From IMG/VR virus record IMGVR_UViG_3300028591_005215, positions 1 through 64,000 of that record: a DNA stretch of 64,000 bases, one strand, 5' to 3'. The position numbers and the translations under genes are program-made. The notes beneath the pieces are model-generated. The model saw only the letters and a program-made list of their open reading frames with translations. It did no database searches and had not been told where the DNA came from. The DNA is from a virus (taxonomy: Duplodnaviria; Caudoviricetes). Below, one piece after another: positions 11,036 through 33,598 of the stretch. The number at the start of each line of letters is the position of its first letter. The first letter of the stretch is position 1.

Positions 11036-11323
11036 AAATTGTTTCCTTTCTTTATTTGTTACTTCACCTAATATATTATTTTATTTTCAAAAAACAAAAC
11101 TTTTCGGCAATTTTTTTTAGAAAAAATTATTCTTCTTTTTAATGTTATTTAACTATTAATTTTTTTTGTTAAATATGTTTAATAAATTAGGTTATTTGAA
11201 AAGAATATATTATATTTGTCTTAGGAAAAATAGTATACAATAAAAAAAAATGGGAATAGCATTTCTACCATTCCCATTGTTGTAATAACAATTTAAAAAT
11301 AACAAATAATGAAAAGTATTGCA

Positions 11324-11560
11324 TTAACGTGTTGATACTATCCTACTTTCCAATTCAGCACCAAGTGAAAATTCATTAATATCTGCATCTTCGGCTATGG
11401 TGCGAGCTGCATCAAGTGCTTCACCTTCATCGTGAAAATCACCCGTAACATCAACAGTGATATTTGCTTTGTATGAAAAAGTTATAGTATAATTTCTTGC
11501 CATTTTTTTTTCGTTTTTAAGGGTTTTAATTACTTGCTTAATAAATTCTGAACTAACCAC
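11324..11560 (-). CDS. Hypothetical protein (true start probably 11503)
   Basis: ORF followed by a terminator. Confidence 0.7.
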   Translation of the reverse strand: MVSSEFIKQVIKTLKNEKKMARNYTITFSYKANITVDVTGDFHDEGEALDAARTIAEDADINEFSLGAELESRIVSTR

Positions 11561-11904
11561 ATATTTTGTGGCTTATAGCCTTTTGTTTTGCTTGAATAGC
11601 AAATTCTATCGCCATCTTTAGCAAGTGCATTAAATGTCTGCAAAATATGAAGAACAGAAATCTTAACCTTTTCATCAAGTTTAAGATATTTTCTAATTTC
11701 GTCTTGCATTTCAACCGAATTTTCAATAAATTCAAGACGAGGATATTTCATTAAATATTCTGAACCTTCATAATTAGGGCAATAAGCTAAGCCATCATAA
11801 ATTTCAAAGTGTAGCTTTTTCTTAAAACCTAAGATGGTTAAATCTTTTTCATCAACCATCTTATTATACATTTTTTCTAAATCTTCACGTTTAATTCTTT
11901 CCAT
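11530..11904 (-). CDS. Hypothetical protein
   Basis: 124 aa, own promoter. Confidence 0.75.
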   Translation of the reverse strand: MERIKREDLEKMYNKMVDEKDLTILGFKKKLHFEIYDGLAYCPNYEGSEYLMKYPRLEFIENSVEMQDEIRKYLKLDEKVKISVLHILQTFNALAKDGDRICYSSKTKGYKPQNMWLVQNLLSK

Positions 11905-12073
11905 TTTCTATTTTATTTTTAATGTATTGCAAATATATAAGAAAACGATGTTAAACCAAAACATTAATTGTTAAAAAGTTTAAATTTATTTCATAGTTAG
12001 AATTTAATATGTTATATTTGTCTTAGGAAGAGTTATATTCAATAAAAAAGAAGGGTGTTATTATTACCCTTCT

Positions 12074-12751
12074 TTATAATAGTTCTGTTATTTCTTTCCC
12101 TTCATTTTTTACCATTGCTTCAAGTTCTTCAAAACGTTGTTTGGTTACTTTGATACCTCTTAATGTTCGTACCTTTGCCCACGTTTGAAACATTTGGTTA
12201 GTGCTACGATACCAATGTGCTTCGGTTAATATGTTACGTATTGTAAGTTTTCTATTAATCAACTTAGCATATTTTTTGTGCGCATTACATATAAAGTAAT
12301 CACCTTTTTTAGTAACCATAAACATAAGGTAATAACTTTCGTTTTTAGGTATGGCAATAGTTTTTAGTTTATCAGTGCTTCTAACACCCATATTCAAGCC
12401 GTGTAAACGATTATACTTTGCAATAAGAGATTTAAAATATTTGCCGTGGGTTGACGTATCACGTATACCTTTGAAGAAAATATAATAGTGGCACATTTCG
12501 TGCACTAAAGTGTCCCTAAGTCCTTCTTCTGTTCTGTCGTAATACGTTGAAATATCAATAGCGCAATAGTACTTTAACGGTCTTATTTTAAAGATACCGC
12601 AATAGGTTTTAGACTTGCATAAGCCAACACCAAAAACAAAGCGTCTACCATTGACTTCAAATTGTTCATTAATATTAGGTAATTCGTTATTAAATACAAG
12701 TTCATTGTACTTATTGAAATTTTCAATTACCCACTGATTTGTTGCTACCAT
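12074..12751 (-). CDS. SprT-like zinc metalloprotease
   Basis: TLVHEMCH (HExxH) with downstream HGKYF. Confidence 0.85.
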   Translation of the reverse strand: MVATNQWVIENFNKYNELVFNNELPNINEQFEVNGRRFVFGVGLCKSKTYCGIFKIRPLKYYCAIDISTYYDRTEEGLRDTLVHEMCHYYIFFKGIRDTSTHGKYFKSLIAKYNRLHGLNMGVRSTDKLKTIAIPKNESYYLMFMVTKKGDYFICNAHKKYAKLINRKLTIRNILTEAHWYRSTNQMFQTWAKVRTLRGIKVTKQRFEELEAMVKNEGKEITELL

Positions 12752-12848
12752 ATTTAATTTCCTTTCTTTAATTATTTAACGTTGACAAATATAATCATTT
12801 CTTTTTATATAAACAAAAAAAATGGGAGTTTTTTTACTCCCATTTTTA

Positions 12849-13274
12849 TTATTTTCTAAAAATAACACTAAGTAGAAATTTTTTCATATTATCATCGTCT
12901 CTAAAGCAATTTCTATATTCTGCAAATAAGTAGCCCAATTTCGCATTAATTATAAATGCTTTGAGGTCATCATCATTTTTAAAGGTATAATACGTATCAT
13001 TATCAAAGACTATCCATTTATTACCTTCTAAAACGGAATAAAGGCAGTCATTAGAAATACTACCAAAATTTTCACTATCACAATAGAAGTCAGACCATTC
13101 AGTAGAACCGTCTTCATTTAAAGCTAATTTAAGGCAAACACTATCGTGCTGAAAAAGTTCATTATAAATTCTTCTAAGTTCTTCAGTAGTCATTTTTTCT
13201 AATGCGTTAGTGAAAGTAAACGCACCAATATTAGAAGCTGCTTCCATCAAATTTTCATCAAATTTCTGTTCCAT
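12849..13274 (-). CDS. Hypothetical cassette protein
   Basis: 141 aa; own promoter, leader and terminator. Confidence 0.8.
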   Translation of the reverse strand: MEQKFDENLMEAASNIGAFTFTNALEKMTTEELRRIYNELFQHDSVCLKLALNEDGSTEWSDFYCDSENFGSISNDCLYSVLEGNKWIVFDNDTYYTFKNDDDLKAFIINAKLGYLFAEYRNCFRDDDNMKKFLLSVIFRK

Positions 13275-13403
13275 AATTAATTTCCTTTCTTTATTTATTT
13301 GTTTAACGTTAACTAATATATTAATTTCTTTCTAATTACAAAGCGTTATTTAAGTTTTTAACACTTATTTAACACTTTGCTATATATACTTAATTAAGTA
13401 CTT

Positions 13404-13919
13404 TTACATTAACCTCATAACGCTTACACCTTCCATATCTAAGGCTTCAATCATTTCGCCAACTTTCAGATTTTTAAGTCTTCCATCGTTCAAACCGAAT
13501 TTAGATAATACTAAAGGTGAATAGCAAGCCACTTTAATTATACCTTGACCATCGCAATTACGTGCATCATTAATTATCATATATACTCTCACACCGTAAC
13601 GTACATAAAATGTCTTTTCAGTACTATCAGTTAATGAGGTGTTGCCTTCTGACACAATATTGTCTTGCTTGATGACTTCATAGTAGTCTTTGAATATTTC
13701 CCTATAGACGTTTTCGTATAAATGCTGCGCTCTATATAGGTCAATATCATCAATATGTTGCCCTCCAAATTTATGGCGCAGTACAAAACAGCCATTTTCA
13801 AGACAACCAATATATTCTGATAAATCTACACATTCAACATTGTGATTTTTCATCAAAGTGGCAATGTCATTTAAAATTTTTTTAGTAAATGACTCAATTG
13901 CGATTTCATAATTCTTCAT
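13404..13919 (-). CDS. Hypothetical protein, paralogue of 26559-27092
   Basis: Shared MKNYEI...VACYSPL...NLKVGEMI. Confidence 0.85.
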   Translation of the reverse strand: MKNYEIAIESFTKKILNDIATLMKNHNVECVDLSEYIGCLENGCFVLRHKFGGQHIDDIDLYRAQHLYENVYREIFKDYYEVIKQDNIVSEGNTSLTDSTEKTFYVRYGVRVYMIINDARNCDGQGIIKVACYSPLVLSKFGLNDGRLKNLKVGEMIEALDMEGVSVMRLM

Positions 13920-14129
13920 AATTAATTTCCTTTCTTTATTTATTTGTTTAACTTACGATAGCAAATATAATACTTTACTTTTGAATATGCAAATTTTTTG
14001 AAGACTTTTTTTTATTTTTTTTTCTCGTAATTTTATTTGGTAGTTTGGTTTATTTTTATTATATTTGTCTTAGGAAAAATAATATATAAAAAAATGATGT
14101 ACCAAATAAGGTACATCATTAACTTAAAA

Positions 14130-14275
14130 AGGTTGTTCCCCTTTGATAGGCTTGAGTCATCACTTCAAACCTAAATGCACCACCATTAATTTTAATTCGC
14201 CAATTAAAACTTTCATTTAACCTAATAGATAGGCTATTAGCCTAAATGATAGATGATGCAACTATTACCATTTTC
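14130..14275 (-). ncRNA. Putative structured ncRNA in its own promoter-terminator cassette
   Basis: Promoter at 14287-14294, no ORF, nested stems (GCATCATC/GGTGGTGC, TCATTTAG/TTAAATGA, TTTTAATT/AATTAAAA), terminator at about 14092-14120. Confidence 0.55.
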
Positions 14276-14337
14276 ATCTTCCTCTACAAATATATATAAT
14301 TAATTCATAAATTCAAAATAAATCACCACTTATTTTT

Positions 14338-14556
14338 TTATCCAACTTCCCAAACTTTTCCAACCCTTCCTTTATTGTCACGTATAACATATCCATACAT
14401 CCAAAAATAGTCAATAACTTTTACCTTTGTACCTTTTGGTATAGTATACTTGCCAAAACGTTCTACATCATATTTAAGACTGAACTCCATACCAATTTTT
14501 TGCTTCGCTTCATCCCTTTGATGAATTGCTCTATTATATTCGTAACCTAAAGCCAT
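14338..14556 (-). CDS. Hypothetical protein
   Basis: 72-aa ORF. Confidence 0.65.
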   Translation of the reverse strand: MALGYEYNRAIHQRDEAKQKIGMEFSLKYDVERFGKYTIPKGTKVKVIDYFWMYGYVIRDNKGRVGKVWEVG

Positions 14557-14562
14557 AGTATG

Positions 14563-14856
14563 CTATTTTTTTCTAAAAGTATAAATCTTATTACCTATAA
14601 GTAACTTAATCTTTTTCTTATATACCCTATATATTTCGATAGACGAGTCCGATTGGTCTAATGCGTCTATTGTTTGGATATGCTTTCCTAACATCTTATA
14701 CGCAAAGCAATTGCCTTCTACACCAATTTCATCAATACATAAGGTATCATTGGTAAACGTATAAGCAACTTTGCCATTTGTATAAGTGCCGTTTAGGGTG
14801 GCTGCTTTACACCCTAAAGACACGATAAACATTGATAGAATTATTAACTTTTTCAT
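14563..14856 (-). CDS. Putative secreted protein or lipoprotein
   Basis: N-terminal signal peptide with SLGC. Confidence 0.7.
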   Translation of the reverse strand: MKKLIILSMFIVSLGCKAATLNGTYTNGKVAYTFTNDTLCIDEIGVEGNCFAYKMLGKHIQTIDALDQSDSSIEIYRVYKKKIKLLIGNKIYTFRKK

Positions 14857-15374
14857 TATTTATTCTTATTTACTTTGCCATACATATTAAGACGATACCA
14901 AGCTTTAGATTTTTTGGTAGGGTAGTGGAAGCAATACGATGAACCATAAGGTGAAGGGTTATTATCGCAAACGATACCAATAGCATCTAAGTTTTTTAAT
15001 GTACCCTTTAAAAGGTGTGAGTAGTGGCAAATGGTATCTTTCTTTTCCAACTTATTCTTCAAAGAGCGAATCTTTTCTACAATGTAATCTGTTTCTTCTG
15101 AAACGACTGCGTTTTCAAAACCTTTATCGCCATAGGCTTCTTTCAGATACTTGTAAGCATTTGAACGGTGATGTGGTACGTGGAAACGATAGCCGTGTTT
15201 TCCAAGCGCATCAATTTCAATTCCGTGGTTTTCAAATTCACTAATTGTAGCTCGATAGAGAGAAGAATAGTGACAAACACTATCTTTCTTTTTATTGTCT
15301 GCGTTCATTACTTTGGCAATGATGTAAGCGATTTCTGCTACTACTACTGCGTTTTCTGTTCCAAATGTTTTCAT
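14856..15374 (-). CDS. Hypothetical protein with internal duplication
   Basis: KKD(S/T)xCHYS...FH.P..S.A repeated twice; GGAGG leader. Confidence 0.8.
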   Translation of the reverse strand: MKTFGTENAVVVAEIAYIIAKVMNADNKKKDSVCHYSSLYRATISEFENHGIEIDALGKHGYRFHVPHHRSNAYKYLKEAYGDKGFENAVVSEETDYIVEKIRSLKNKLEKKDTICHYSHLLKGTLKNLDAIGIVCDNNPSPYGSSYCFHYPTKKSKAWYRLNMYGKVNKNK

Positions 15375-15485
15375 TATTTATACCTCCTATGTTTAAATTA
15401 TTATTGTTTTTTATTGATGTTGGTAATATATAAAAACCAAACTAAAAAATGAAATATTTTCCTTGTTTTAACACTTATTTAACAT

Positions 15486-15914
15486 TTAATATTTATGTAT
15501 TTTATATACAATATGTGGGGTTTTTATATATTGTGTCTCTGACACAATAACAGCCTCAATTTCATATTTATACAATAATTGCAATTTTTGTAATGTAGTA
15601 GAAGAAACAGAAACGTTATTAGTTTCAATGCTTATTTCGTGTGCATTTTCATCCACATTGACAATACCTTTAATATATTCTTCATATGGTTCAATTATAT
15701 GATGATATTTTTTCAAATAAGCGCAAATAAATCTTTCCAAATGTTTGCGCCTATAGCCAAATAAGTCTTTTTCTTTACCGTGGAACACCCATAATATAGG
15801 AACTAAATCATTATCATTATTATCTTTATTAGGATGCTTGACTTCAAAAGTACCAACTTTGAAATCGTTAAAAATTACATCACCATTACGTTTAAAAATA
15901 AATTTATTTACCAT
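15486..15914 (-). CDS. Hypothetical cassette protein
   Basis: 142 aa. Confidence 0.75.
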   Translation of the reverse strand: MVNKFIFKRNGDVIFNDFKVGTFEVKHPNKDNNDNDLVPILWVFHGKEKDLFGYRRKHLERFICAYLKKYHHIIEPYEEYIKGIVNVDENAHEISIETNNVSVSSTTLQKLQLLYKYEIEAVIVSETQYIKTPHIVYKIHKY

Positions 15915-16117
15915 ATCAATTCTCCTTTATTTGTTACGTAAGCAAATATATAAAATTCAAACTAAAAAATGAAATGATTTAATAGCTTTAACACGACTTT
16001 AACACTTTATTATTAAAAATAAAATAATTGTTAATAAGTTTGGTAGTTTGGTTTGTTTTTAATATATTTGTCTTAGGAAAAAATAGTATATATAAGAAAA
16101 GGATAAGGTTTATCACC

Positions 16118-16432
16118 TTATCCTTTTTCTATTTTAGTAATTAATTTAATATAATTGCCTTCATATCCACCACGTGGAGCGTCATTACCTTTTACGTATT
16201 TAACCTTACAAAGGTCAAGCAAATCACATATAGCGTACATATAATTGTATTTTGATTTGTGTCTTGCAAATCTACCATAATAACCACACGGTCTAATAAT
16301 ATCTTTACCGTTAAAGTAACTACCATATTCTTGATTAGCTATATCAAATAATGTTTTAATTCCAACTATGCTTTTTGCATTTTTCAACTTTATTTGCTTG
16401 TTGATTCTCTTTATTAATGTACTTCGTTTCAT
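16118..16432 (-). CDS. Hypothetical phage protein (GNDAPRGG motif)
   Basis: 104 aa. Confidence 0.8.
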   Translation of the reverse strand: MKRSTLIKRINKQIKLKNAKSIVGIKTLFDIANQEYGSYFNGKDIIRPCGYYGRFARHKSKYNYMYAICDLLDLCKVKYVKGNDAPRGGYEGNYIKLITKIEKG

Positions 16433-16433
16433 A

Positions 16434-16637
16434 TTAACAACCTTTTTCGTGTAACAATAATGATAATTTTTCTATTCCAAAAAACTTTATAAGTTTATTT
16501 TTTGTTTCCTCAAGCATTAGTTTCCCATCATTATTAGGGTTACTAAGACTAATAATGCAATAGTCACCGTAATCTTTTAAATTATCAATCCTAAAACCAT
16601 CACGATACGCACTTTTAACACTTCTATATTTTTTCAT
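16434..16637 (-). CDS. Hypothetical protein
   Basis: 67 aa. Confidence 0.6.
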   Translation of the reverse strand: MKKYRSVKSAYRDGFRIDNLKDYGDYCIISLSNPNNDGKLMLEETKNKLIKFFGIEKLSLLLHEKGC

Positions 16638-16693
16638 AATAAAATTTCGTAATGAACCCCCACAAGTATTTAACTTGTGGGTAGTTTAAACTA

Positions 16694-17326
16694 TTAGTCA
16701 ATCATTAAGTAATCTTTAACTAAATCCCAATATTTTTCCAAAAATGAAGCTCTTTGAGTTCTTGTATGAAAAGCAAGAAAGTAGTATTCACAACTTGAAA
16801 TCATTGTAGAAATTTTATTGCAATTTCTGTATATTACATATTTTGTCTCGCTATTTTTCCATTCTTCATCAGTGATAACTCCACCAAAGTTTTCTATATC
16901 ATTAGCCATTATTTGACTAATTCTTGCCATTGCAATAGCTGATATGGCTTGTTTTCTGTTAGCAAAGTTTTTGTAACGGTTCTGATTATATTTTACATAT
17001 GTACAATATGCAATGCGTGAATCAGATTCAATAAAATACCCATTAGCAATTTTATTTTCCTTATCACTCCAAAACTCTTGCTCAACTTCTTCAACTATCA
17101 CTAAATCAAGTGCGTCAAGCTCTCCTTTAGAATAAAGCCTTCCTTCAGAAGTATAACATTCAGCGTGTTCGCCACCATCCTCTGTCTCAATCAATGCAAT
17201 AATAGGGAAATGGTAAACTTTTGCATCAGTGCAGATAATTCTCGCCTCAGCACCACTTCTTGTTTGAACTTTAGCACCTTTTTTATAAGCTTCTAAATTA
17301 AATGGTTTAATTACTTCTTTTTTCAT
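16694..17326 (-). CDS. 'KPF.L...TR.G' family, copy 2
   Basis: Paralogue of 1643-2293. Confidence 0.85.
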   Translation of the reverse strand: MKKEVIKPFNLEAYKKGAKVQTRSGAEARIICTDAKVYHFPIIALIETEDGGEHAECYTSEGRLYSKGELDALDLVIVEEVEQEFWSDKENKIANGYFIESDSRIAYCTYVKYNQNRYKNFANRKQAISAIAMARISQIMANDIENFGGVITDEEWKNSETKYVIYRNCNKISTMISSCEYYFLAFHTRTQRASFLEKYWDLVKDYLMID

Positions 17327-17554
17327 AATTTATTTTCCTTTCTTTATTTGTTTAACTTACGATAGCAAATATAACACTTTGCTTTTAAAAAAAGAAACAA
17401 TAATGGGTTTTTAACACTACTTTAACACTTTAAGGTTTTATTGGAATAAATGTTAATAAATTTTGTAGTTTGGAAATAATTTACTATATTTGTTTTAAGA
17501 AAAATAGTATATATAAGAAAAGGTAGGGTTGCTTTCCCTACCTTTTTTATTTTT

Positions 17555-18418
17555 TTACCATTCTACTCTTTCATCATCTTTTTGAATTATGAAAGGGTTG
17601 TTAATTTGTTTCGCATAGTGACCGTTTACGATAGTCTTTTTTGAAGGTTTATAATGTAATAGCACTACAACGTTCTTTGGGTCGTCTGCACGAACGTCAC
17701 TAATATCGCCATTCACTATTTCATATCCATTAAACTTTTTAGGTAGTGTATCATTTTTCTTCAAATCAAAAACGACTGCAACACGTGTACCATTTTCAAG
17801 TGCATATTTTGCGTCATTATCGTTATAACCATTATAAGACAAAGTATAGTCTATATTATTGTATTTTTTCTGTAGGTCTAAATATGCACGTACTTTTGTA
17901 TATTCATTAAAAGTAACGTTTGGGCGCAATTCAAGTATATTTTTACCTTGATATTTGAACATTAATGGAGATAAATCAGAAGTTCCGTTTAGACGAGCTA
18001 AAAATCGCAGTCCTAATTTATTTGCTTTTTCAAAAGCTTTGTCAAGTTCTTCTAAGTACATTTGCATAAACACATCACGGTTATATAAGAACAATTCAGT
18101 TCTGATACGTCTTACTCTATCTATAGGACTTTCAGTATTATATTTGTAAAGAACATTAATACCACTTCCCGCTAAGCAATTAATTTTGCAATGTTCAGCG
18201 TTTGGACACATAGTATGGTTGTCCAACTTATAAGGTGTAAGATAAAGAAGAAATTCCAATACACCTTTGTTGTTGAGTGTATGCTTTTGCTTTGATGTAG
18301 CATTAATCGGAACAAGTTCCTTAATTCCTATTGCTTTTGCTACCTTTGCGTGGGTAGTGTAAATCAAATTACCATAGAAGTTCTTCTTTTCTTCAATTGT
18401 CATATTAAATGTATTCAT
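17555..18418 (-). CDS. GP88-like protein (Cys-motif, radical-SAM-like), copy 1
   Basis: CPNAEHCKINCLAGSG, RLNGTSDL, F.EYTK, NGD.SD.R motifs. Confidence 0.75.
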   Translation of the reverse strand: MNTFNMTIEEKKNFYGNLIYTTHAKVAKAIGIKELVPINATSKQKHTLNNKGVLEFLLYLTPYKLDNHTMCPNAEHCKINCLAGSGINVLYKYNTESPIDRVRRIRTELFLYNRDVFMQMYLEELDKAFEKANKLGLRFLARLNGTSDLSPLMFKYQGKNILELRPNVTFNEYTKVRAYLDLQKKYNNIDYTLSYNGYNDNDAKYALENGTRVAVVFDLKKNDTLPKKFNGYEIVNGDISDVRADDPKNVVVLLHYKPSKKTIVNGHYAKQINNPFIIQKDDERVEW

Positions 18419-18505
18419 AACTTAACTAATTATTTGTTTGTTTTTAACGTAGGCAAATATAACCTTTTCTTTTTAATTATCAAACTTTTTTGTGTTAAAA
18501 AAGTG

Positions 18506-19050: not shown

Positions 19051-19096
19051 AATTAGTTAAGTTATTTATTGTGTTCCGAGGTGTGGAACAAAGTTG

Positions 19097-19218: not shown

Positions 19219-19220
19219 TA

Positions 19221-19446: not shown

Positions 19447-19447
19447 G

Positions 19448-26002: not shown

Positions 26003-26236
26003 TTAAATAAACCAAATAATCACATTATCACCACATGCGCCACAAATTGTATCATTATGCTTTATAGTGCTTAAATCCATTTCGCTAATGCTAAAAGCTT
26101 GTTCACCATCTTTTAATTGGTTTGTAAGCCATTCACGTGCGTCCTCCCACTTTGATTTTCTTAGGTGAGATGTATCAATGCCCTTTGATTCATACCAATT
26201 CGCATTAATTGAAAGTACTATTACTTTTGTTACCAT
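26003..26236 (-). CDS. Hypothetical protein
   Basis: 77 aa. Confidence 0.65.
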   Translation of the reverse strand: MVTKVIVLSINANWYESKGIDTSHLRKSKWEDAREWLTNQLKDGEQAFSISEMDLSTIKHNDTICGACGDNVIIWFI

Positions 26237-26237
26237 A

Positions 26238-26432
26238 TTACAAATAATCTTTTATGTAGTCCCACAATTCATTTTCTTCCTCGTCACAAAACGATTCAAG
26301 TTGTTCACCTTCTATTTCAGTTATAAGTATATTAGTAATTTCATCATATACGGCAATACCTTTGCTATCAGTCCCATCAGTGTTAAAATGGAAATAATCT
26401 TTTAAGATGAAATTATAAAGCTTACGTTCCAT
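26238..26432 (-). CDS. Hypothetical acidic protein
   Basis: 64 aa. Confidence 0.65.
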   Translation of the reverse strand: MERKLYNFILKDYFHFNTDGTDSKGIAVYDEITNILITEIEGEQLESFCDEEENELWDYIKDYL

Positions 26433-26558
26433 ATCTTATTTACTTTTTTTGTTTAACTTACGTGAACTAATATATTAATTTCTTTTTAATTACAAAGTGT
26501 TATTTAAGGTTTTAACACTTATTTAACACTTTGCAATATATGTACTTAATTAAGTACC

Positions 26559-27092
26559 TTAAAATAGTCGTAGAACACTTGCACCTTCCATACTTAAACT
26601 TTTAATCATTTCACCAACTTTCAAGTTTTCAAGTCTTTTATCATTCCAACCAAAGTTAGATAAAGCTAAAGGTGAATAACAAGCCACATTAGTCACACCG
26701 TGACCACCACAATAACGTGCATCATTAATCAGCGTATACACTTTCATACCATATTTTACGTAAAACGTATCTTCATAGCAATCAGTTATTGAAGCTTCAT
26801 CTTTTGGTACAATATTTTCTTGCTTGATAATTTGATAATAGTCGCTGAATATTGCACTATATACTTCTTCATATACAGACCGCAAAGTGTATGGGCTAAC
26901 TTCATTTATATCATTAATTTCAAGAATACGTTTTCCCTCAAATTTAAGACGCAGTGTAAAACCACATTCTTCAAGAGAGACAATGCAGTCCGATAATTCC
27001 ATATGTTCAACATTATGATTTTTCATCAAAGTGATGATACCACTTTTAATTTTATTATTGACTGCCTTAATATCAATTTCGTAATTCTTCAT
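26559..27092 (-). CDS. Hypothetical protein, paralogue of 13404-13919
   Basis: 177 aa. Confidence 0.85.
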   Translation of the reverse strand: MKNYEIDIKAVNNKIKSGIITLMKNHNVEHMELSDCIVSLEECGFTLRLKFEGKRILEINDINEVSPYTLRSVYEEVYSAIFSDYYQIIKQENIVPKDEASITDCYEDTFYVKYGMKVYTLINDARYCGGHGVTNVACYSPLALSNFGWNDKRLENLKVGEMIKSLSMEGASVLRLF

Positions 27093-27541
27093 AATTAATT
27101 TTCCTTTCTTTATTTATTTAACTTTGTCTAATATAATAAATTCTTTTTAATTATAAAACTTTTTTGGCAATTATTTTATTGCATTTAATATGTTTTTTAA
27201 TGCAAACATTTCTTCGGGGGTTAAAAAAATGGAATGGTGAAAGCCCTCACTATCAGTCTTATAAATAATAAAATTATTAGACTTCTTGTCTGCAACTACT
27301 TCTACATTTCTTATCATCATAATATTTACTTTTATTTGTTTTACATAGGTAAATATAACTTTTTCAAATTAAAAAATGAAATGATTTAATGGTTTTAACA
27401 CGACTTTAACATTTGAATTAAAAACTAAAATAAATGTTAAATTATTTGGCAGTTTGGAAGTAATTTAATATATTTGTTTTAGGAAAAATAATGTTTAAGA
27501 AATAAGGTAGAGTTATTTTCCCTACCTTATTATGAACAAAT

Positions 27542-28108
27542 CTATTTAAATAAACCACCAATTTTTAATTTTCCTTCTTTATCTTTTAATACAATACAGT
27601 CCGAATCAGTTCTTATTGCTTTATATACTGTATTGCAAATGCTTGCACAAGTTCCCTCCCCTAATTGTTCAGCGTCATTGATAGCTTGCATTATGAACAA
27701 TTTATATTGTAATTTTTGTGCGTAGTTACTACTAATATTATATTTTTTGAAAATTTCTAAAAGCTTTTCAATCATATCATCAGTATACTTATAATCATCA
27801 AGAATATAATCGCCATAATTTGTACATAAACGAATATTATAGTCCAAATTAGGAAAAATACCACCTTTAAGGATTATATCCACGTAAGCGTCAATGTGTT
27901 GATTAATATTACGAAGTGTACGTGAAAATGCACGTCTTGTTAAGATAACAGTATCATCAAGAATTTCATTATCTGTTTTTTTAAACCCTTCTTGAACACC
28001 TTGATTAATAGCGTTCTTTAGATTATCCATAAACTCTATATCATTTTTACCCAATTCAATAGCATATATACTAATAGCGTTCTTTAATTTTTCCATATTT
28101 ATTTTCAT
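27542..28108 (-). CDS. Hypothetical protein
   Basis: 188 aa. Confidence 0.75.
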   Translation of the reverse strand: MKINMEKLKNAISIYAIELGKNDIEFMDNLKNAINQGVQEGFKKTDNEILDDTVILTRRAFSRTLRNINQHIDAYVDIILKGGIFPNLDYNIRLCTNYGDYILDDYKYTDDMIEKLLEIFKKYNISSNYAQKLQYKLFIMQAINDAEQLGEGTCASICNTVYKAIRTDSDCIVLKDKEGKLKIGGLFK

Positions 28109-28111
28109 TCT

Positions 28112-28429
28112 TTATTTAATTTTTAATTCTTCATTATTTTCACTAACAAGTATCTTTGTAAACTCCCAAACCTCATCTAAATTTACAAGAACGTAAGTTT
28201 TTGGGGTGATGTATATTTTAAGGTAAGAAACGTCTAAATATTCTTTGCTTAGCCAATAGGTTTGCAAATAGCTCTTAAAACTATCAGTAACATCATCTAC
28301 AACAGATTTAACAAGTTTGTTTAAATCAATATTATTTAAATCAGCAATATTGATAGTTTCCTTATCATTCAATAAGAATTTAGTCAACTCATCTTTAATT
28401 TTACCAATTCTTTTTTCAGTCATTTTCAT
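28112..28429 (-). CDS. Hypothetical protein
   Basis: 105 aa; AAGGAG leader. Confidence 0.75.
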   Translation of the reverse strand: MKMTEKRIGKIKDELTKFLLNDKETINIADLNNIDLNKLVKSVVDDVTDSFKSYLQTYWLSKEYLDVSYLKIYITPKTYVLVNLDEVWEFTKILVSENNEELKIK

Positions 28430-28882
28430 ATTTTATATCTCCTTTGGTTTACGTCAACTAATATATAAAATTCAAACTAAAAAATGAAATAATAATGGGT
28501 TTTTAACACTACTTTAACACTTATCACTAAATTTGAAATAAACGTTAAAATATTTTGTAGTTTGGAAAGAATTTAATATATTTGTCTTAGGAAAAATAAT
28601 ACACAATAAAAAAAACGTACTACTTATCGCAAGCAATACGTTTTTTAATCATTTAATAATATCAATCATTTTTTAATTAGCTTTATGGATAGTTCTTTAA
28701 TATTTGACAAATCTTATTTACTCCCTTTGTTTTACGTTGTCTAATATAACATTTTCTTTTTAAACTACAAAACTTTTTGGCTCTTTTTTTCTATTTTTTT
28801 TATGGGTGGCTTAAATTCTTAATAAAGGAATAAGGGATAAGAATATAAATCCTTATCCCTTATAGGTACTTAATTAAGTACT

Positions 28883-29566
28883 TTACTTGTTCAGTTCGTG
28901 AATAAGTTTGGTAATATCCTCAAATGTACCAAAGTTACCAAATCTTTCGTTCGCCCAAGCTTTTTCTCCTTGCGCTAAGAAAATTACATTTTCTTCTTTG
29001 AAGTTCTTCACACCTATAATATTCTTAATGTTTAAAGCTTCTTGCTTTGCGCTTGCTTTTTTTGGTGTGGTATACTTTAGTATATCTTTTTCTTCTTCTT
29101 CTGTGGCAAGTCGGTCGTCCAAAAATGTAAAGTATTTTACTTTGGTAGGTTTACGTCCTTGATATAGTCTTAAATATCTTTGGTCGCCATCTTTTTTCTT
29201 TAGCAAGAAGTTTTCTAACTTATCAGAAGCTTTTTCAGCGTATGTAGACTCTTTTGGAAAAGCTATATTAAACTCTTCATCAGTAAAGTCGATTCCTTCT
29301 CGCTTACATTCAGATTTTACGCAAGCATAATAACTGACACCACTGCAAGCATTTTCGTAAAGTGCTAAAGTAAATACACGTCCGTCATACTTAGCGTAAG
29401 TTTTATTTTGCTTACTCTCTTTAAGTGTTTCACCCTTTGGGGTTTTGTTCACTTTTTTTGGTGTATATGTGGCGCAATAAAGTCCGAATGAACCCTTTTT
29501 GAAATTTTCGCCAAACTCGTCAATAGTGTTAAATACTTTGCTATACATACTTATTTTCCTTTCCAT
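28883..29566 (-). CDS. Hypothetical protein
   Basis: 227 aa, own promoter. Confidence 0.8.
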   Translation of the reverse strand: MERKISMYSKVFNTIDEFGENFKKGSFGLYCATYTPKKVNKTPKGETLKESKQNKTYAKYDGRVFTLALYENACSGVSYYACVKSECKREGIDFTDEEFNIAFPKESTYAEKASDKLENFLLKKKDGDQRYLRLYQGRKPTKVKYFTFLDDRLATEEEEKDILKYTTPKKASAKQEALNIKNIIGVKNFKEENVIFLAQGEKAWANERFGNFGTFEDITKLIHELNK

Positions 29567-30090
29567 TTAAATTAATATTGTTATTTCCTTTAACATTAGC
29601 TAATATAATACTTTACTTTTAAAAAACAAAACTTTTACCGACTTTTTTTACTAAAAACATAGTTAAAAATTTCATCTTTTTTTTATCACTTTTTTAACAA
29701 TTTTAACGTGAAAATATTTTGTAGTTTGGAAAGAATTTAATATATTTGTCTTAGGAGAAATGGTATGCAATAAAAAAGAGCCACAAATTATTTGTGATTT
29801 GTTTTATATAGAATAACACATATATTTAGGTTTAATTTATTTCATTTAATTTGCTTAAATAAATGCTCCAAATAGCTTTATATTTATAAAGCCTATAAAA
29901 CTATCATCAGATTAATTTTATACCCTTATAAGCAATTTAAATGCGTTAAACTTATTTGAAATAAGCGCATATAGCAACAAAAAAAATGATACTACTTTCG
30001 CAAGCAATATCATTAATACTCAAATAATAAAAATCATTTAAAAAATTAAACCAAAAAAATATTAAATTAGAAGAATGTTTTTATTCTTAT

Positions 30091-30327
30091 TTAAGGTAGA
30101 ACTGCAAAATAATAATCTGCACCGTAATCGTAATAAATTTCAAGTCCTTCCTTTGTAGTTGTTACATATCTATGATACTTTGGCATATCTCCCTCAGTAA
30201 ATTCGCCATCAGTGTACACTTCATCAAAGTAATCGCTCATAGCTTCAAATATATTATTATATGAGCTATAATTGAAAATTTCTTCTACTTGAGAACTATC
30301 AAGAATATTATTAAAAATCTTTGCCAT
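30091..30327 (-). CDS. Hypothetical acidic protein
   Basis: 78 aa. Confidence 0.75.
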   Translation of the reverse strand: MAKIFNNILDSSQVEEIFNYSSYNNIFEAMSDYFDEVYTDGEFTEGDMPKYHRYVTTTKEGLEIYYDYGADYYFAVLP

Positions 30328-30535
30328 AATAGTAAATTATTTAATGTTGTTGTCATTTCTTTTAACATCAGCTAATATAATACTTTACTTTTGAATATGC
30401 AAATTTTTAAGCAACTTTTTTTTTATTTTTTTTCTTGCTTTTTTATTTGGTAGTTTGGTTTATTTTTATTATATTTGTCTTAAGAAAAATAATACCCAAT
30501 AAAAAAGTAGGGATATTTCCCTACTTTTTACTTTA

Positions 30536-31399
30536 TTACCACTCTATCCTATTATCATTTTTTGAAATAACGAAAGGGTTATCTGTTTGTTTTGTATAAT
30601 GTCCGTTTACAATAGTCTTTTTTGACGGCTTATAATGTAACAATACTATAACGTTCTTTGCGTCATCCGCTCTAACATCACTTATATCACCGTTTACAAC
30701 TTCATAACCGTTAAACTTTTTAGGCAATATATCATTTTTCTTTAAATCGAACACAACAGCGACACGTGTACCGTTTTCAATAGCGTATTTAGCTTCACTA
30801 TCATTATAGCCGTTATATGAAAAAGTATAATCTATATTACTATATTTCTTTTGTAGGTCTAAATAGGCACGTACCTTTGTATATTCGTTAAAAGTGATAT
30901 TAGGACGAAGCTCCAAAATATTTTTACCCTTATACTTAAACATTAAAGGGGATAAATCAGAAGTTCCGTTTAGACGAGCCAAAAAACGTAAACCTAACTT
31001 GTTTGCTTTTTCAAAAGCTCTATCAAGCTCATATAGATACATTTGCATAAATACTTCACGATTATACAAAAATAGTTCGGTTCTTATACGTCTAACTCTA
31101 TCAATAGGGCTCTCACTATTATACTTATAAAGTACATTGATACCACTGCCCGCCAAACAAGTAACTTTGCAGTGTTCGGCATTTGGGCACATAGTATGAT
31201 TATCTAATTTATAAGGTGTAAGATAAAGAAGAAACTCTAAAACTCCCTTATTATCAAGTGTATGCTTTTGTTTTGATGTAGCATTAAGGGGAACAAGTTC
31301 TTTAATTCCTATTGCTTTTGCCACTTTTGAGTGACTTGTATATATTAAATTGCCGTAAAAATTCTTTTTTTCCTCAATAGTCATATTAATTGTCTCCAT
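30536..31399 (-). CDS. GP88-like protein, copy 2
   Basis: Same length (287 aa) as and highly similar to 17555-18418, with many synonymous differences. Confidence 0.75.
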   Translation of the reverse strand: METINMTIEEKKNFYGNLIYTSHSKVAKAIGIKELVPLNATSKQKHTLDNKGVLEFLLYLTPYKLDNHTMCPNAEHCKVTCLAGSGINVLYKYNSESPIDRVRRIRTELFLYNREVFMQMYLYELDRAFEKANKLGLRFLARLNGTSDLSPLMFKYKGKNILELRPNITFNEYTKVRAYLDLQKKYSNIDYTFSYNGYNDSEAKYAIENGTRVAVVFDLKKNDILPKKFNGYEVVNGDISDVRADDAKNVIVLLHYKPSKKTIVNGHYTKQTDNPFVISKNDNRIEW

Positions 31400-31617
31400 A
31401 ACTTAACTTATTACTTAATTGTTTTAACATCAACTAATATATAAAAACCAAATTAAAAAATGAAGCAATAATAACTTTTTAACACGACTTTAACATATAA
31501 AAGAAAAAATATAAAAAATGTTAAAAAGCTTTGTAGTTTGAAAGTAATTTAATATATTTGTTTTAGGAAAAATAATATAATTAAAAAAAGGTAGGGAAAA
31601 TAACCCTACCTTTTATG

Positions 31618-31863
31618 TTATTCAACTATTACCAAATCAGCGTTGCACTCTTTATCATTTTTATAAATTTTGCCTTCAGAAGTATACAATACAATTTGCT
31701 CTTTGCCTTTATACAATTTAACCAAAGCAATAATAGGGTAATTTGAGTCATTGTCTGCATCTGTGCAAATAATTCTAACTTTATTACGTCCTTTCCTTAA
31801 TTTGATTTTAGCACCTTTATTATATTCTTCTAAGCTAAATGGTTTAATTACTTTTTTCTTCAT
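31618..31863 (-). CDS. Short 'KPF.L' family member (N-terminal domain only), copy 4
   Basis: MKKKVIKPFSLEEY...RIICTDA...DLVIVE; GGAGG upstream supports a start at 31863. Confidence 0.7.
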   Translation of the reverse strand: MKKKVIKPFSLEEYNKGAKIKLRKGRNKVRIICTDADNDSNYPIIALVKLYKGKEQIVLYTSEGKIYKNDKECNADLVIVE

Positions 31864-32323
31864 ATTTTTTACCTCCTTTATTTTATTACTTAATGATAAT
31901 CTGACTTCTGCCAATTGTTTCAAAAGAGATACCCTTTAGAGTCAACTCTATTACTTTGTTCTCTGTTTCTTTTTCTGTATTAAAATTCAATATCTTCATA
32001 ATAGTAAATTATTTAATGTTGTTGTCATTTCTTTTAACATTAACAAATATATAAAAATCAAATTAAAAAATGAAACAATAATGCTCATTTAACACAACTT
32101 TAACACTTAAAAGTTTTATTGAAAAAATTGTTAAATTGTTTGGCAGTTTGGAAACAATTTAATATATTTGTCTTAGGAAAAATAATATACAATAAAAAGC
32201 CTACCTAATAAAAATAGGTAGGTTTTTTGTTATAAGACGTTTTATATTATTTGCTGATACCTTATACTATAATAGCAAAATAAAGCCCTATATCCAAAGG
32301 AATAGGGCTTAAATTCAATTTTA

Positions 32324-32749
32324 TTAATAAATTCGTGGTTCTCCACCATTCATATAGTAAGATAAACCGTTTATTTCATAGATAGGTTGATAAAAAGGCA
32401 TAAAGTTACCAATATTCATAAACCCAATAAATTTAAATAATTTGTGTGGGTTCATAGGTGTAAGCTCTTCACCTTCACCGTTATAACCGATAGCTTTTAA
32501 CTCTGTATCACCCCACAAACAATTTTTACGCTTTAAATTTTTAGACGTTAAAAAGTGTTTAATAAGGTAATTAAGACCTTTTTCAGCTTGTTCGTCAGTA
32601 ACAAACACATCATTTTCCCCAATAGGTGAAAAATCAATATTTTCACCACGGTTTAAACGACTCTTAAGTAAGTTAATATCACGCTCACTGATAGTCTCTT
32701 TTGCTACTGCTTCACTGATAACTATTTCACTTGCTCTTTTCTTTGCCAT
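32324..32749 (-). CDS. Hypothetical cassette protein
   Basis: 141 aa. Confidence 0.75.
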   Translation of the reverse strand: MAKKRASEIVISEAVAKETISERDINLLKSRLNRGENIDFSPIGENDVFVTDEQAEKGLNYLIKHFLTSKNLKRKNCLWGDTELKAIGYNGEGEELTPMNPHKLFKFIGFMNIGNFMPFYQPIYEINGLSYYMNGGEPRIY

Positions 32750-33598
32750 AATAGTTTAATTTTAAAATGTTTATAACTTAATTGTGATAGGAATATAATA
32801 CTTTATTTTTATTCTTGCAAATTTTTAATGAACTTTTTTTGAAGTTTTTTACTCTTCTAAATCTTTAAGTTCTTTTTCCCAATCAACATCTGACTCGTAT
32901 ACAAGACTACAAGCTAAAACTATTAACGCAACAATAATGAAAATTCCAAACATATTTTTTTCCTTTCTATTTAATTAATATTGTTATTTCTTTTAACGAC
33001 TGCAATATAACACTTTACTTTTGAATATGCAAGCTTTTAGGCAACTTTTTTTTATTTTTTTTTTCTTGCGATTTTGTTTGGTAGTTTGGAAAGAATTTAT
33101 TATATTTGTTTTAGGAAAAGAAATACATACATAAAAGAAAAGGCTATCTATTTTGTTAGATAACCTTTTCTTTTTCGTTTATATTAATAAAGTAGGTAAA
33201 ATACGCCTATAGCTTTATTTTGTTGCTTTTAAGCGTTTATTATAATCTTCTGATAGAAATCTTTATACACTATTATAAATGCTAATTAGAGGCAAAATCT
33301 TGTTATTTGTTATCTTCTTTAATTGTAATAACAAGATAATACTTTATGATAGGAAAAGAATATATAAAAAAAAACGTACTACTTATCACAAGCAATACGT
33401 TAATTAATATTTAACTCGATTAATCAATGAATATTTGACATAATTATTTTCCTTTTTTTAATTGACTATATAAATGTATCGCTATACATTATTTTTATTC
33501 ATTCCCTTAACGTTAGCTAATATATACATTTCATTTTAAACTTGCAAATTTTTGAGCGACTTTTTTTAAAAAAATATTTATGCAATTAATATTCATAT

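What the first reader, a model, noticed from the sequence alone, without database searches (positions are those of the whole stretch)
11185..33120. 17 opposing promoter elements that appear to transcribe almost nothing, spaced through a 22-kb cassette array
Every credible gene from 9.5 to 33.5 kb is on the - strand. Yet roughly every 0.6-2.3 kb (mean about 1.4 kb) there is a conserved + strand element, TTTG(G)TAGTTTG...TATATTTGT(C/T)TTA(G/A)GAAAAAT. It matches the Bacteroidota sigmaA consensus, sits back-to-back with a - strand promoter, and in most copies runs within about 25 nt into the terminator hairpin of the neighbouring cassette. The start region (TCTTAGGAAAAAT) is conserved, unlike in the gene-driving promoters, and I saw no copy outside this block. 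Known analogue: promoter/stem-loop cassettes that shuffle genes in T4-type phages, but those face the genes. Hypotheses: an RNA polymerase sink, a source of short or antisense RNAs, insulation by supercoiling or collision, transcription-assisted DNA entry, or recombination homology.
Basis: partly seen in the sequence, partly recalled or inferred. Interest (0 to 1): 0.8.

Follow-up and report, generated by a model that had tools for sequence, protein, structure and literature searches.

The report
Backward promoters in phage cassette junctions
A giant T4-like phage of rumen Bacteroidota separates 17 early-gene units with a repeated junction that holds a near-perfect host promoter pointing away from the genes and straight into the neighbour's terminator. 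Related phages have gained, lost and reordered gene units by recombining at this junction, but what the backward promoter does is still untested.

Summary
There are 17 copies, all on the + strand, at 11211-33121 and nowhere else in the 279,749-bp phage record; shuffles predict 0.26.

Each copy is one part of a roughly 160-210-nt boundary module. In the direction of the genes, the module holds:
- a symmetric A-run/hairpin/T-run terminator;
- the opposing promoter about 12 nt further on, with the full Bacteroidota sigmaA shape;
- the next unit's gene-facing promoter, with its leader and ribosome site, 75-135 nt beyond that.

The 9-nt -7 box TATATTTGT is invariant in 45 distinct copies from this phage and four related metagenome contigs. 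It is 117/117 identical between positional orthologues, where other segments are 83-94% identical.

Close relatives differ by whole units. Breakpoints cluster in the module, and one crossover maps to the roughly 65-nt opposing element alone.

So this is a PeSL-like shuffling cassette of a T4-type phage. This scan has seen such arrays before on other DNA. What is new here is a built-in backward promoter whose roughly 55-nt transcript ends at the neighbour's terminator.

Its function is inferred only: most likely boundary insulation, through polymerase collision, recapture of recycling polymerase, or short antisense RNA. Relatives with 82-84% identical capsid proteins lack it. Interest is moderate.

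The parts
11068..11278 (.). Boundary module 1. - strand -7 box 11068-11075; + promoter 11187-11218 (core 11211-11231; -33 reads TTAG); terminator hairpin 11249-11278.
11930..12075 (.). Boundary module 2. - strand -7 box 11930-11937; + promoter 11989-12020 (core 12013-12033; -33 reads TTTC); hairpin 12047-12075.
13962..14120 (.). Boundary module 3 (class A: A-tract between the two promoters). - strand -7 box 13962-13969; + promoter 14036-14067; core 14060-14080; hairpin 14093-14120.
15943..16128 (.). Boundary module 4 (class B: GTTAAAGT double box upstream of the - promoter). - strand -7 box 15943-15950; + promoter 16039-16070; core 16063-16083; hairpin 16096-16128.
17366..17547 (.). Boundary module 5 (class B). 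- strand -7 box 17366-17373; + promoter 17461-17492; core 17485-17505; hairpin 17517-17547.
18864..19050 (.). Boundary module 6 (class B). - strand -7 box 18864-18871; + promoter 18959-18990; core 18983-19003; hairpin 19018-19050.
20693..20874 (.). Boundary module 7 (class B). - strand -7 box 20693-20700; + promoter 20789-20820 (-33 reads TTTC); core 20813-20833; hairpin 20850-20874.
22959..23137 (.). Boundary module 8 (class B). - strand -7 box 22959-22966; + promoter 23054-23085; core 23078-23098; hairpin 23113-23137.
24626..24788 (.). Boundary module 9 (class B). - strand -7 box 24626-24633; + promoter 24721-24752; core 24745-24765. Only a weak hairpin, 24771-24788. A - strand tRNA-Met lies at 24855-24929.
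25842..25996 (.). Boundary module 10 (class A). - strand -7 box 25842-25849; + promoter 25915-25946; core 25939-25959; hairpin 25974-25996.
27350..27537 (.). Boundary module 11 (class B). - strand -7 box 27350-27357; + promoter 27445-27476; core 27469-27489; hairpin within 27493-27537. The relative REL1 has two copies of this module flanking an extra unit.
28458..28646 (.). Boundary module 12 (class B). - strand -7 box 28458-28465; + promoter 28553-28584; core 28577-28597; hairpin 28610-28646. A crossover with REL1 maps to about 28541-28612, which is the + element alone.
29600..29807 (.). Boundary module 13. - strand -7 box 29600-29607; + promoter 29717-29748; core 29741-29761; weak hairpin 29770-29807.
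30372..30529 (.). Boundary module 14 (class A). - strand -7 box 30372-30379; + promoter 30446-30477; core 30470-30490; hairpin 30502-30529.
31434..31614 (.). Boundary module 15 (class B). - strand -7 box 31434-31441; + promoter 31529-31560; core 31553-31573; hairpin 31586-31614.
32044..32231 (.). Boundary module 16 (class B). - strand -7 box 32044-32051; + promoter 32139-32170; core 32163-32183; hairpin 32191-32231.
33002..33174 (.). Boundary module 17 (class A), at the head of the array. - strand -7 box 33002-33009; + promoter 33077-33108; core 33101-33121; hairpin 33133-33174.
9532..32749 (-). Array of - strand early-type transcription units of 1-7 small genes each. Most genes have no recognisable family. 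The exceptions are SprT-like (12074-12751) and GP88-family (17555-18418 and 30536-31399). The array also holds a - strand RNA operon at about 19015-19978 and tRNA-Met.

Best explanation
The 17 elements are the opposing-promoter part of a repeated boundary module in the hyperplastic early-gene region of a T4-type jumbo phage of rumen Bacteroidota. The module is a Bacteroidota counterpart of the PeSL terminator/early-promoter cassettes.

Shown:
- The module is the unit of homology at which related phages have gained, lost, duplicated and reordered transcription units by homologous recombination.
- The opposing element by itself has served as a crossover site.
- Its copies evolve as a mosaic.

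Inferred, fairly likely (about 0.7): the element is a live host-sigmaA promoter. Its transcript starts near TTAGG, runs about 20-25 A-rich nucleotides, and ends at the same symmetric hairpin that terminates the upstream - strand unit, giving an RNA of about 55 nt.

Inferred, less sure (about 0.35-0.4): the purpose is to seal the unit boundary, so that each shuffled unit is expressed on its own. Three ways of doing this cannot be told apart from sequence:
- polymerase fired from the opposing promoter meets read-through polymerase head-on at the bidirectional terminator;
- the opposing promoter recaptures polymerase that slides on the DNA after termination, before it reaches the next unit's promoter;
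- the short RNA, which is complementary to the 3' end of the neighbour's message and to any read-through, marks read-through RNA for cleavage.

The confidence of 0.4 given for this explanation is for the whole chain, boundary sealing included. The recombination-module part alone stands at about 0.85.
For: Promoter identity:
- The -7 box TATATTTG is present in 17/17 copies, and TTTG lies 19-20 nt upstream in 14/17. This matches the sigmaABfr consensus as quoted in PMC7366714.
- The same extended shape drives genes in unrelated phages.
- TATATTTGT is invariant in 45 distinct copies. It is 117/117 identical between positional orthologues, against 83-94% for every other segment; at 90% background the chance of that is about 4e-6.
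- In diverged REL1 copies the correctly spaced TTTG survives while the second TTTGG is lost.
- The opposing promoter matches the consensus better than the gene-facing promoters beside it, which read TATATTAG, TATATTTA or TTTC.

Terminator coupling:
- The hairpin starts a median of 12 nt after the core, with an A-run on one side and a T-run on the other. Orthologues show compensatory stem changes.
- Predicted RNAs have an open 5' leader and a stable 3' hairpin, with z-scores of -2.5 to -5.1.

Recombination:
- REL1 carries 20 copies and REL2 carries 10, all in the same orientation.
- REL1 has three extra whole units, one split unit, and genes moved between units.
- The W28577 indel has its crossover in the roughly 65-nt element alone.
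- Ten of 21 synteny breakpoints fall in the module, against 17.5% expected by length (P = 0.0014).
- Eight of 20 REL1 elements join flanks that are not neighbours in the window.
- In about 7 of 16 positions a non-orthologous copy is closer than the orthologue.

Setting:
- A Gp23-type capsid gene and a RecA/UvsX-like gene are present.
- No tyrosine or serine recombinase is detected.

Precedents for boundary sealing:
- Head-on collisions at bidirectional terminators are needed to stop read-through (bioRxiv 10.1101/2022.10.23.513370).
- Terminated polymerase can reinitiate at the nearest promoter in either orientation (PMC11347151).
Against: - There are no transcript data. Promoter activity, start site and RNA length are all predictions.
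- The element is lineage-specific. Complete or large relatives with 82-84% identical capsid protein lack it. They hold only 2 orphan promoter-hairpin units each, against 10 here under the same strict test. The equivalent array of G007 manages with gene-facing promoters only. Any function is therefore dispensable or replaceable.
- Two terminators inside the block (12818-12847 and 28830-28863) have no opposing element.
- A polymerase sitting at the opposing promoter would cover the neighbour's termination point. An elongating polymerase may simply knock it off rather than be stopped.
- Concerted evolution could keep copies alike without any function. Only the excess constraint on the -7 box argues against that.
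Confidence: 0.4

Rival explanations
1. The opposing units are small-RNA genes. They would give 17-20 near-identical RNAs of about 55 nt, each with a shared A-rich 5' end (AGGAAAAAUAAUAUA...) and a variable terminator hairpin. Such RNAs would act in trans. One possibility is a decoy of the phage's own ribosome-binding regions for a ribosome, nuclease or RNA-binding protein. Another is cis-antisense action on the neighbour's 3' end, like lambda oop RNA.
For: - The transcribed start region is nearly invariant, more so than promoter function needs.
- The predicted RNAs have the open leader plus 3' hairpin typical of intergenic small RNAs.
- The leader resembles the phage's own translation start regions. 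It reads AGGAAAAAUAAUAUA, against AAGGAAAUAAAAAUAUG before the genes.
- Some copies carry ATG followed by a stop within one to five codons.
- The high copy number would give high abundance.
Against: - No Rfam family matches.
- No complementary target motif exists elsewhere in the genome.
- The leader is A-rich like the gene leaders, not complementary to them.
- The ATG is not conserved; most copies have ATA or ACA.
- Relatives lack the RNA altogether.
- Overlap with the neighbour's message is limited to the terminator.
Confidence: 0.2
2. The element has no transcriptional role. It would be a passenger: a relic of an emptied, inverted promoter-leader-terminator unit that became part of the junction repeat. 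Its spread and its uniformity would then come only from recombination and gene conversion among junctions.
For: - Mosaic copies, and spacer variants that swap between positional orthologues.
- Crossovers lie in the element.
- The leader looks like a translation start region with the start codon decayed.
- The element is absent from relatives whose arrays work without it.
Against: - The -7 box is 117/117 identical between orthologues while neighbouring positions in the same conversion tracts vary.
- The -33 spacing is kept in otherwise diverged copies.
- All 47 aligned copies keep one orientation and a near-fixed distance to a terminator.
- The element matches the consensus better than the working promoters next to it.
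Confidence: 0.2
3. The element is a helper of the gene-facing promoter next to it. Divergent firing, or shared upstream contacts, would raise or throttle initiation at the - strand promoter, through local negative supercoiling or by holding polymerase nearby.
For: - The two promoters sit at fixed distances within each module class: 111-112, 89-91 and 133-135 nt. The steps between classes are about 21 nt, or two helical turns.
- The upstream edges of the two polymerase footprints would lie a few to about 30 bp apart.
Against: - A 55-nt transcript makes little supercoiling.
- The fixed distances follow from whole-module duplication, so they amount to only two or three independent observations.
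- The element recombines away from the gene-facing promoter.
- Internal gene-facing promoters in the same block work without it.
Confidence: 0.1
4. The units are replication origins of the T4 type: a promoter followed by an AT-rich unwinding stretch, whose transcript primes leading-strand synthesis.
For: The layout, a promoter followed by about 25 nt of nearly pure A/T, resembles the promoter-plus-unwinding-element layout of T4 oriF and oriG. The T4 layout is stated from my own knowledge and was not checked here.
Against: - A strong terminator follows at once and should release the RNA.
- Seventeen origins within 22 kb have no precedent.
- Forks would run head-on into the early genes.
- Relatives lack the units.
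Confidence: 0.04
5. The elements are site-specific recombination sites of an integron-like or invertible-promoter system.
For: A co-oriented array of units, each ending in a hairpin followed by an invariant core, looks superficially like attC sites.
Against: - No tyrosine or serine recombinase is found in the 280-kb record, although the record is only about 80% complete.
- Crossover positions vary from the core alone to the whole module.
- The units carry their own promoters.
- No copy is inverted among 47.
Confidence: 0.03

Closest known systems
PeSL (promoter-early stem-loop) and PmSL cassettes of T4-type phages (Arbiol et al. 2010, PMC2839356; Comeau et al. 2014, PMC4122927)
   Same: - The host genome is T4-type.
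- The motif is composite: terminator stem-loop, AT-rich stretch, host-sigma early promoter, ribosome site and start codon.
- It is repeated between small genes of unknown family in a hyperplastic region.
- Insertions, deletions and replacements between close relatives have their junctions in the motif.
- Homologous recombination is the likely agent.
   Different: - Here about 110 nt lie between the stem-loop and the gene-facing promoter. They hold a second promoter that faces backwards, and that is the best-conserved part of the junction.
- The PeSL papers mention no antisense or bidirectional component.
- The promoter type is Bacteroidota sigmaA, not sigma70.
- Mini-circles were not testable.
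Collision-driven bidirectional terminators between convergent genes in E. coli (Ju et al. 2019, as cited in Wang et al.; Wang, Watters, Ju and Liu, bioRxiv 10.1101/2022.10.23.513370)
   Same: A hairpin element is approached by transcription from both sides. The model is that head-on polymerase meetings at the hairpin stop read-through.
   Different: - In E. coli the opposing transcription comes from a real convergent gene or antisense RNA. Here it would come from a dedicated promoter about 20 nt from the hairpin that makes nothing else.
- Here the hairpins also look like ordinary intrinsic terminators.
- Nothing here has been measured.
Lambda oop RNA (short antisense RNA with its own promoter and terminator, overlapping the 3' end of cII); cited from my own knowledge
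   Same: A short phage RNA with its own promoter and intrinsic terminator, made opposite to a neighbouring early gene's 3' end.
   Different: - There are 17-20 copies rather than one.
- The overlap is confined to the terminator and any read-through, not the coding end.
- No regulatory role is known.
Recycling termination with reinitiation at the nearest promoter in either orientation (PMC11347151 and works cited there)
   Same: A promoter lies next to a hairpin terminator, in the antisense orientation. That is the layout at which sliding post-termination polymerase was shown to restart.
   Different: The mechanism was shown for E. coli polymerase in vitro. Whether Bacteroidota polymerase does this, and whether a phage exploits it, is unknown.

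Membership tests
PeSL-type shuffling cassette of T4-type phages | The host genome is a T4-type phage | tested here: met
The Pfam Gp23 major capsid family matches at E = 1.6e-64 in a 660-aa frame. A RecA/UvsX-like gene is present.
PeSL-type shuffling cassette of T4-type phages | Composite motif in this order: terminator stem-loop, then host-sigma early promoter, then ribosome site and start codon of the next gene | tested here: met
   Hairpins; - strand TTTG/TTTC...TATATTTG promoters, AAAGGAAA ribosome sites and ATG. About 110 extra nt lie between the hairpin and the promoter.
PeSL-type shuffling cassette of T4-type phages | Repeated in the intergenic spaces of a hyperplastic region full of small genes of unknown family | tested here: met
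   17 modules in 22 kb. Of 30 ORFs tested against Pfam, 27 had no hit above the curated cut-off.
PeSL-type shuffling cassette of T4-type phages | Insertions, deletions and replacements between close relatives have junctions in the motif | tested here: met
   Ten of 21 breakpoints fall in the module, P = 0.0014.
PeSL-type shuffling cassette of T4-type phages | The conserved promoter of the motif faces the downstream gene | tested here: not met
   The best-conserved promoter faces away from the genes in all 47 aligned copies. The gene-facing promoter is present but more variable.
PeSL-type shuffling cassette of T4-type phages | Excised mini-circles carrying one chimeric motif | not testable with these tools
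   Needs inverse PCR on infected cells or virions.
Bacteroidota sigmaA (sigmaABfr) promoter | TAnnTTTG at about -7 | tested here: met
   17/17 copies in the window, and invariant in 45 distinct copies. Consensus as quoted in PMC7366714.
Bacteroidota sigmaA (sigmaABfr) promoter | TTTG at about -33, at the proper spacing | tested here: met
   14/17 copies have TTTG 19-20 nt upstream of the -7 box. The other three have one mismatch (TTAG, TTTC, TTTC).
Bacteroidota sigmaA (sigmaABfr) promoter | Polymerase binding and a mapped transcription start | not testable with these tools
   No transcript or binding data are available.
Bidirectional terminator with convergent transcription | A hairpin flanked by an A-run on one side and a T-run on the other, usable from both strands | tested here: met
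   Most of the 47 copies. In the 9 nt on each side of the hairpin the mean is 4.9 A before and 4.1 T after, and the stems often extend into A/T pairs. Three or four copies are weak.
Bidirectional terminator with convergent transcription | Transcription actually arrives from both sides and 3' ends coincide | not testable with these tools
   Needs 3'-end mapping such as Term-seq or SEnd-seq.
Integron-like cassette array | A site-specific recombinase, with junctions at one fixed point | tested here: not met
   No Phage_integrase or Resolvase match in the record, which is about 80% complete. Crossover positions vary.
Invertible promoter (inverton) of Bacteroidales | Both orientations are found, and flanking inverted repeats are present | tested here: not met
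   All 17 + 20 + 10 copies are in one orientation, in three independent assemblies.

The most novel reading that the evidence does not exclude
The phage has built a portable transcriptional insulator. It would consist of a dedicated, otherwise unproductive opposing promoter placed about 20 nt from a bidirectional terminator. Its only job would be to send polymerase into, or recapture polymerase from, the boundary of each early-gene unit, so that shuffled units stay independent. That would be a natural, modular use of programmed polymerase collision or recycling.
Probability: 0.25. Interest if true: 0.75.

Novelty: new variant of a known kind. Interest (0 to 1): 0.55.

Why it matters
PeSL-type junctions explain how T4-like phages trade accessory genes. 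Finding them in a Bacteroidota jumbo phage, with mapped crossovers, extends that mechanism to a major gut and rumen phage group.

The backward promoter is the new piece. If it fires, it would be a natural example of a promoter kept for what the polymerase does at a boundary, not for the RNA it makes. That would give a direct test, in living phage, of collision-assisted or recycling-linked termination, which so far has been studied mainly in E. coli and in vitro.

It could also give a compact insulator part for genetic circuits in Bacteroides.

If it does not fire, it shows how a promoter-shaped repeat can persist as pure recombination homology.

Tried and rejected
- Exact-core scan of IMG/VR: only three single chance matches.
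- Exact-core scan of 185,579 prokaryote genomes: only single chance matches. The one Bacteroidales contig (L318) is unrelated.
- Megablast of the block against GenBank phages: only a tRNA-like stretch matched.
- A GP88-family protein used as bait for relatives: nothing found.
- The -33/-7 shape scanned in IMG/VR: no relatives, but it showed that the shape is an ordinary gene-facing promoter elsewhere.
- The GTTAAAGT double box scanned in IMG/VR: a widespread upstream motif, not a marker of this lineage.
- Rfam at permissive E-values: only the tRNA and noise.
- MotA and AsiA families: not found. The control also rang nowhere, so this says little.
- A small + strand ORF behind the promoter: rejected. 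ATG is present in only a minority of copies and is followed by a stop within 1-5 codons.
- A late-promoter reading on the - strand: rejected. No TATAAATA-like word is conserved across the two spacer variants.
- An operator reading of the start region: no support. The word occurs nowhere else.
- DNA-entry motor: rejected as unlikely. Transcripts would be about 55 nt, and the array lies mid-genome in a complete relative.
- Helical phasing of the two promoters (90, 111 and 133 nt): noted, but there are too few independent classes to count as evidence.

Full report
**1. What is there**

The core TATATTTGTYTTARGAAAAAT occurs 17 times in the window with up to 3 mismatches, always on the + strand, between 11211 and 33121. 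Shuffled sequence gives 0.26 matches on average. The window is the first 64 kb of a 279,749-bp virus record, about 80% complete, and that record holds the same 17 copies and no others. Shorter pieces of the element are also absent elsewhere in it. Spacing is 610-2265 nt, mean 1368.

The genes of the block are on the - strand:
- the - strand ORFs tile the region;
- three match Pfam families: SprT-like, and GP88 twice;
- the only tRNA is on the - strand;
- GC skew is negative.

Most other ORFs match nothing. The record encodes a T4 Gp23-type capsid protein and a RecA/UvsX-like protein.

**2. Anatomy**

Alignment of the copies with their flanks shows that the element is one part of a module of about 160-210 nt at each boundary between transcription units. 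Read in the direction of the genes, the module holds:
- the stop codon of the upstream unit;
- a hairpin flanked by an A-run and a T-run;
- the opposing element about 12 nt further on;
- the gene-facing promoter 75-135 nt beyond that, followed by a leader with a strong ribosome site (AAAGGAAA or AAGGAG) and the ATG.

On the + strand the element reads (A/T)GTTAA..TTTGGTAGTTTGG-N11-TATATTTGT(C/T)TTAGGAAAAATAATATA.

The gene-facing promoters come in two main kinds:
- Four have an A-tract upstream and lie 89-91 nt from the opposing -7 box.
- Ten have a GTTAAAGTnGTGTTAAAG double box and lie 111-112 nt away.

That double box turned out to be common upstream of TATATTTG promoters in more than a hundred unrelated IMG/VR contigs.

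The units hold one to seven genes. Inside them there are further gene-facing promoters, and two terminators, without any opposing element.

**3. Is it a promoter?**

The Bacteroidetes primary sigma factor recognises TAnnTTTG near -7 and TTTG near -33 (PMC7366714).

- All 17 copies have TATATTTG, and 14 have TTTG 19-20 nt upstream. These 14 are nearly a quarter of the 62 strict matches in the whole genome.
- The extended shape TTTGGTAGTTTGG-N11-TATATTTGT is used in unrelated phages directly in front of start codons. It is therefore a normal, probably strong, promoter form.
- Across 45 distinct copies from this phage and its relatives, the nine bases TATATTTGT never vary. TTAGGAAAAAT is almost invariant, and the -33 region and spacer vary more.
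- Between positional orthologues in the window and the relative REL1, the -7 box is identical at 117 of 117 positions. Every other segment, coding or not, is 83-94% identical. At 90% background the chance of that is about 4e-6.
- In three diverged REL1 copies, the TTTG at the right spacing is kept while the neighbouring TTTGG is lost.
- The gene-facing promoters beside the element match the consensus less well.

I take this as good, though indirect, evidence that the element is kept as a working promoter in the + orientation.

**4. What it would transcribe**

The hairpin base lies 23-27 nt after the -7 box. With a start 5-8 nt after the box, the RNA would have about 20 A-rich, unstructured nucleotides, then a hairpin and a short U-run, about 55 nt in all. 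Six examples fold this way, with z-scores of -2.5 to -5.1.

The hairpins are symmetric (AAAAAG...CTTTTT), so they can terminate from either side. Orthologues show compensatory stem changes and flipped loops.

- No Rfam family matches.
- There is no conserved ORF. Where some copies have ATG, others have ATA or ACA, and a stop follows within one to five codons.
- The leader does resemble the phage's own translation start regions. The unit may have begun as an emptied gene unit.

**5. Relatives and recombination**

IMG/VR and GenBank phages gave no copy. One scan of metagenome contigs did:
- a 96.5-kb contig of which 29 kb is held (REL1; 20 copies; about 88-96% identical);
- an 11.7-kb contig (REL2; 10 copies; about 97%);
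- two smaller contigs.

All copies have the same orientation.

Unit-by-unit comparison shows that REL1 has:
- three extra whole units: one novel, and two that are paralogues of units elsewhere in the window;
- one window unit split by an extra element;
- single genes moved between units.

REL2 has a two-gene segment moved to the neighbouring unit.

At the indel next to 28577, the two REL1 junctions share only the roughly 65-nt opposing element, so the crossover lay inside it. At 27469 the shared stretch is the whole module of about 210 nt.

- Ten of 21 synteny breakpoints fall within -175 to +65 of an element. That span covers 17.5% of the block (P = 0.0014).
- Eight of 20 REL1 elements join flanks that are not neighbours in the window.
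- In about 7 of 16 positions another copy is closer than the positional orthologue, and the two spacer variants swap between orthologues.

No tyrosine or serine recombinase was found, and crossover positions vary. Homologous recombination is therefore the likely agent.

This is the behaviour described for PeSL cassettes of T4-type phages (PMC2839356, PMC4122927). Those papers describe gene-facing promoters only and mention no antisense or bidirectional part. This scan has reported PeSL-like arrays before on other DNA.

**6. How special is the opposing promoter?**

Phages whose capsid protein is 82-84% identical lack the element. They are G007 (295 kb, terminal repeats), G008 (312 kb, terminal repeats) and G003 (273 kb).

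I applied one strict test to all four genomes: consensus promoter, no ORF of 35 codons or more within 130 nt, and a hairpin with a T-run within 40 nt. It finds 10 of the 17 units here, but only two scattered candidates in each relative.

G007's equivalent array (about 130-158 kb) has some 40 conserved gene-facing promoters. In many the upstream terminator hairpin appears to wrap around the -33 box, with the T-run serving as spacer; I read this from the listed sequences and did not fold them.

The backward promoter is therefore a recent addition in one lineage, not a general need of these phages.

**7. Mechanism**

Shown: the module is the homology at which units are exchanged, and the opposing element alone suffices as a crossover site.

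Inferred: it is an active promoter whose transcript ends at the neighbour's terminator.

The element keeps a tight distance to the terminator. Its distance to the gene-facing promoter depends on the module class, and it recombines away from that promoter. I therefore tie its role to the terminator side.

The best-fitting idea is boundary sealing, and published work gives two physical routes:
- Head-on polymerase collisions at bidirectional terminators are needed to prevent read-through (bioRxiv 10.1101/2022.10.23.513370).
- Polymerase that stays on the DNA after termination restarts at the nearest promoter in either orientation (PMC11347151). Here that nearest promoter is the opposing one, which would send the polymerase back into the terminator rather than on to the next unit.

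A third route is cleavage of read-through RNA after pairing with the short RNA.

None of these can be told apart from sequence. A polymerase parked on the opposing promoter would overlap the neighbour's termination point and might simply be displaced.

The rival readings are a trans-acting small-RNA family, a passenger repeat, a helper of the gene-facing promoter, replication origins, and site-specific recombination sites. They are weighed in their own section.

**8. Verdict**

The thing is a new variant of a known kind. It is a PeSL-like shuffling junction of a Bacteroidota T4-type jumbo phage with a built-in, strongly constrained backward promoter.

Noticed in passing
L067-L179 (IMG/VR loci); window class B modules, e.g. 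18895-18925: The double box TGTTAAAGTnnTGTTAAA lies about 35-45 nt upstream of TATATTTG-type -7 boxes in more than 100 unrelated Bacteroidota phage contigs. It often comes right after a terminator hairpin. It looks like a widespread upstream promoter element, or a binding site, of unknown partner.
   Followed up: partly
G007 (L305-L306), about 130-158 kb of that record: A relative's array has about 40 near-identical gene-facing promoters (TTTGGynAnTTCAAAATAATTTCGTACCTTTGCA). The upstream terminator hairpin appears to enclose the -33 TTTGG in its loop, with the T-run doubling as the promoter spacer. This would be a very compact PeSL. Read from the listed sequences; not folded.
   Followed up: partly
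window 14093-14120 vs REL1; window 25974-25996 vs REL2 (L191): Orthologous terminator hairpins differ by a flipped loop (CCAAATAAGG vs CCTTATTTGG; ATTATAT vs ATATAAT) and by compensatory stem changes. This suggests inversion within the hairpin arms.
   Followed up: no
window 28650-28830, - strand: There is a gene-facing promoter, leader and ribosome site (AAAGGGAG). They are followed by ATT where an ATG is expected, and by only a few codons before a stop. This looks like a decayed or emptied unit between terminator 28830-28863 and module 12.
   Followed up: no
window 9949-10156, 13275-13403, 26433-26558, 28598-28882, - strand: The palindrome (G)GTACTTAATTAAGTAC(C) sits directly after stop codons. 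In two places it is followed by a second long hairpin (GCAAAGTGTTAAATAAGTGTTAAAA...CACTTTGT). Another first-stage note covers the palindrome.
   Followed up: no
window 33121-34150: A consensus - strand promoter ending at 34143 faces about 1 kb without a long ORF. That stretch holds the parS-like palindrome noted by others, and it ends at the hairpin next to the last opposing element (33133-33174). A non-coding transcript of about 1 kb may therefore head the array.
   Followed up: no
L038, L039, L054, L059, L065 (IMG/VR): In another phage group the same promoter shape (TAGTTTGG-N11-TATATTTGT) is followed by about 45 nt and a GC-rich terminator hairpin with no ORF. This is a single small-RNA-like unit, conserved across five contigs.
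   Followed up: no
window modules; distances: The distances between the opposing and gene-facing -7 boxes fall into classes of 89-91, 111-112 and 133-135 nt. The steps are about two helical turns. There are too few independent classes to test.
   Followed up: partly
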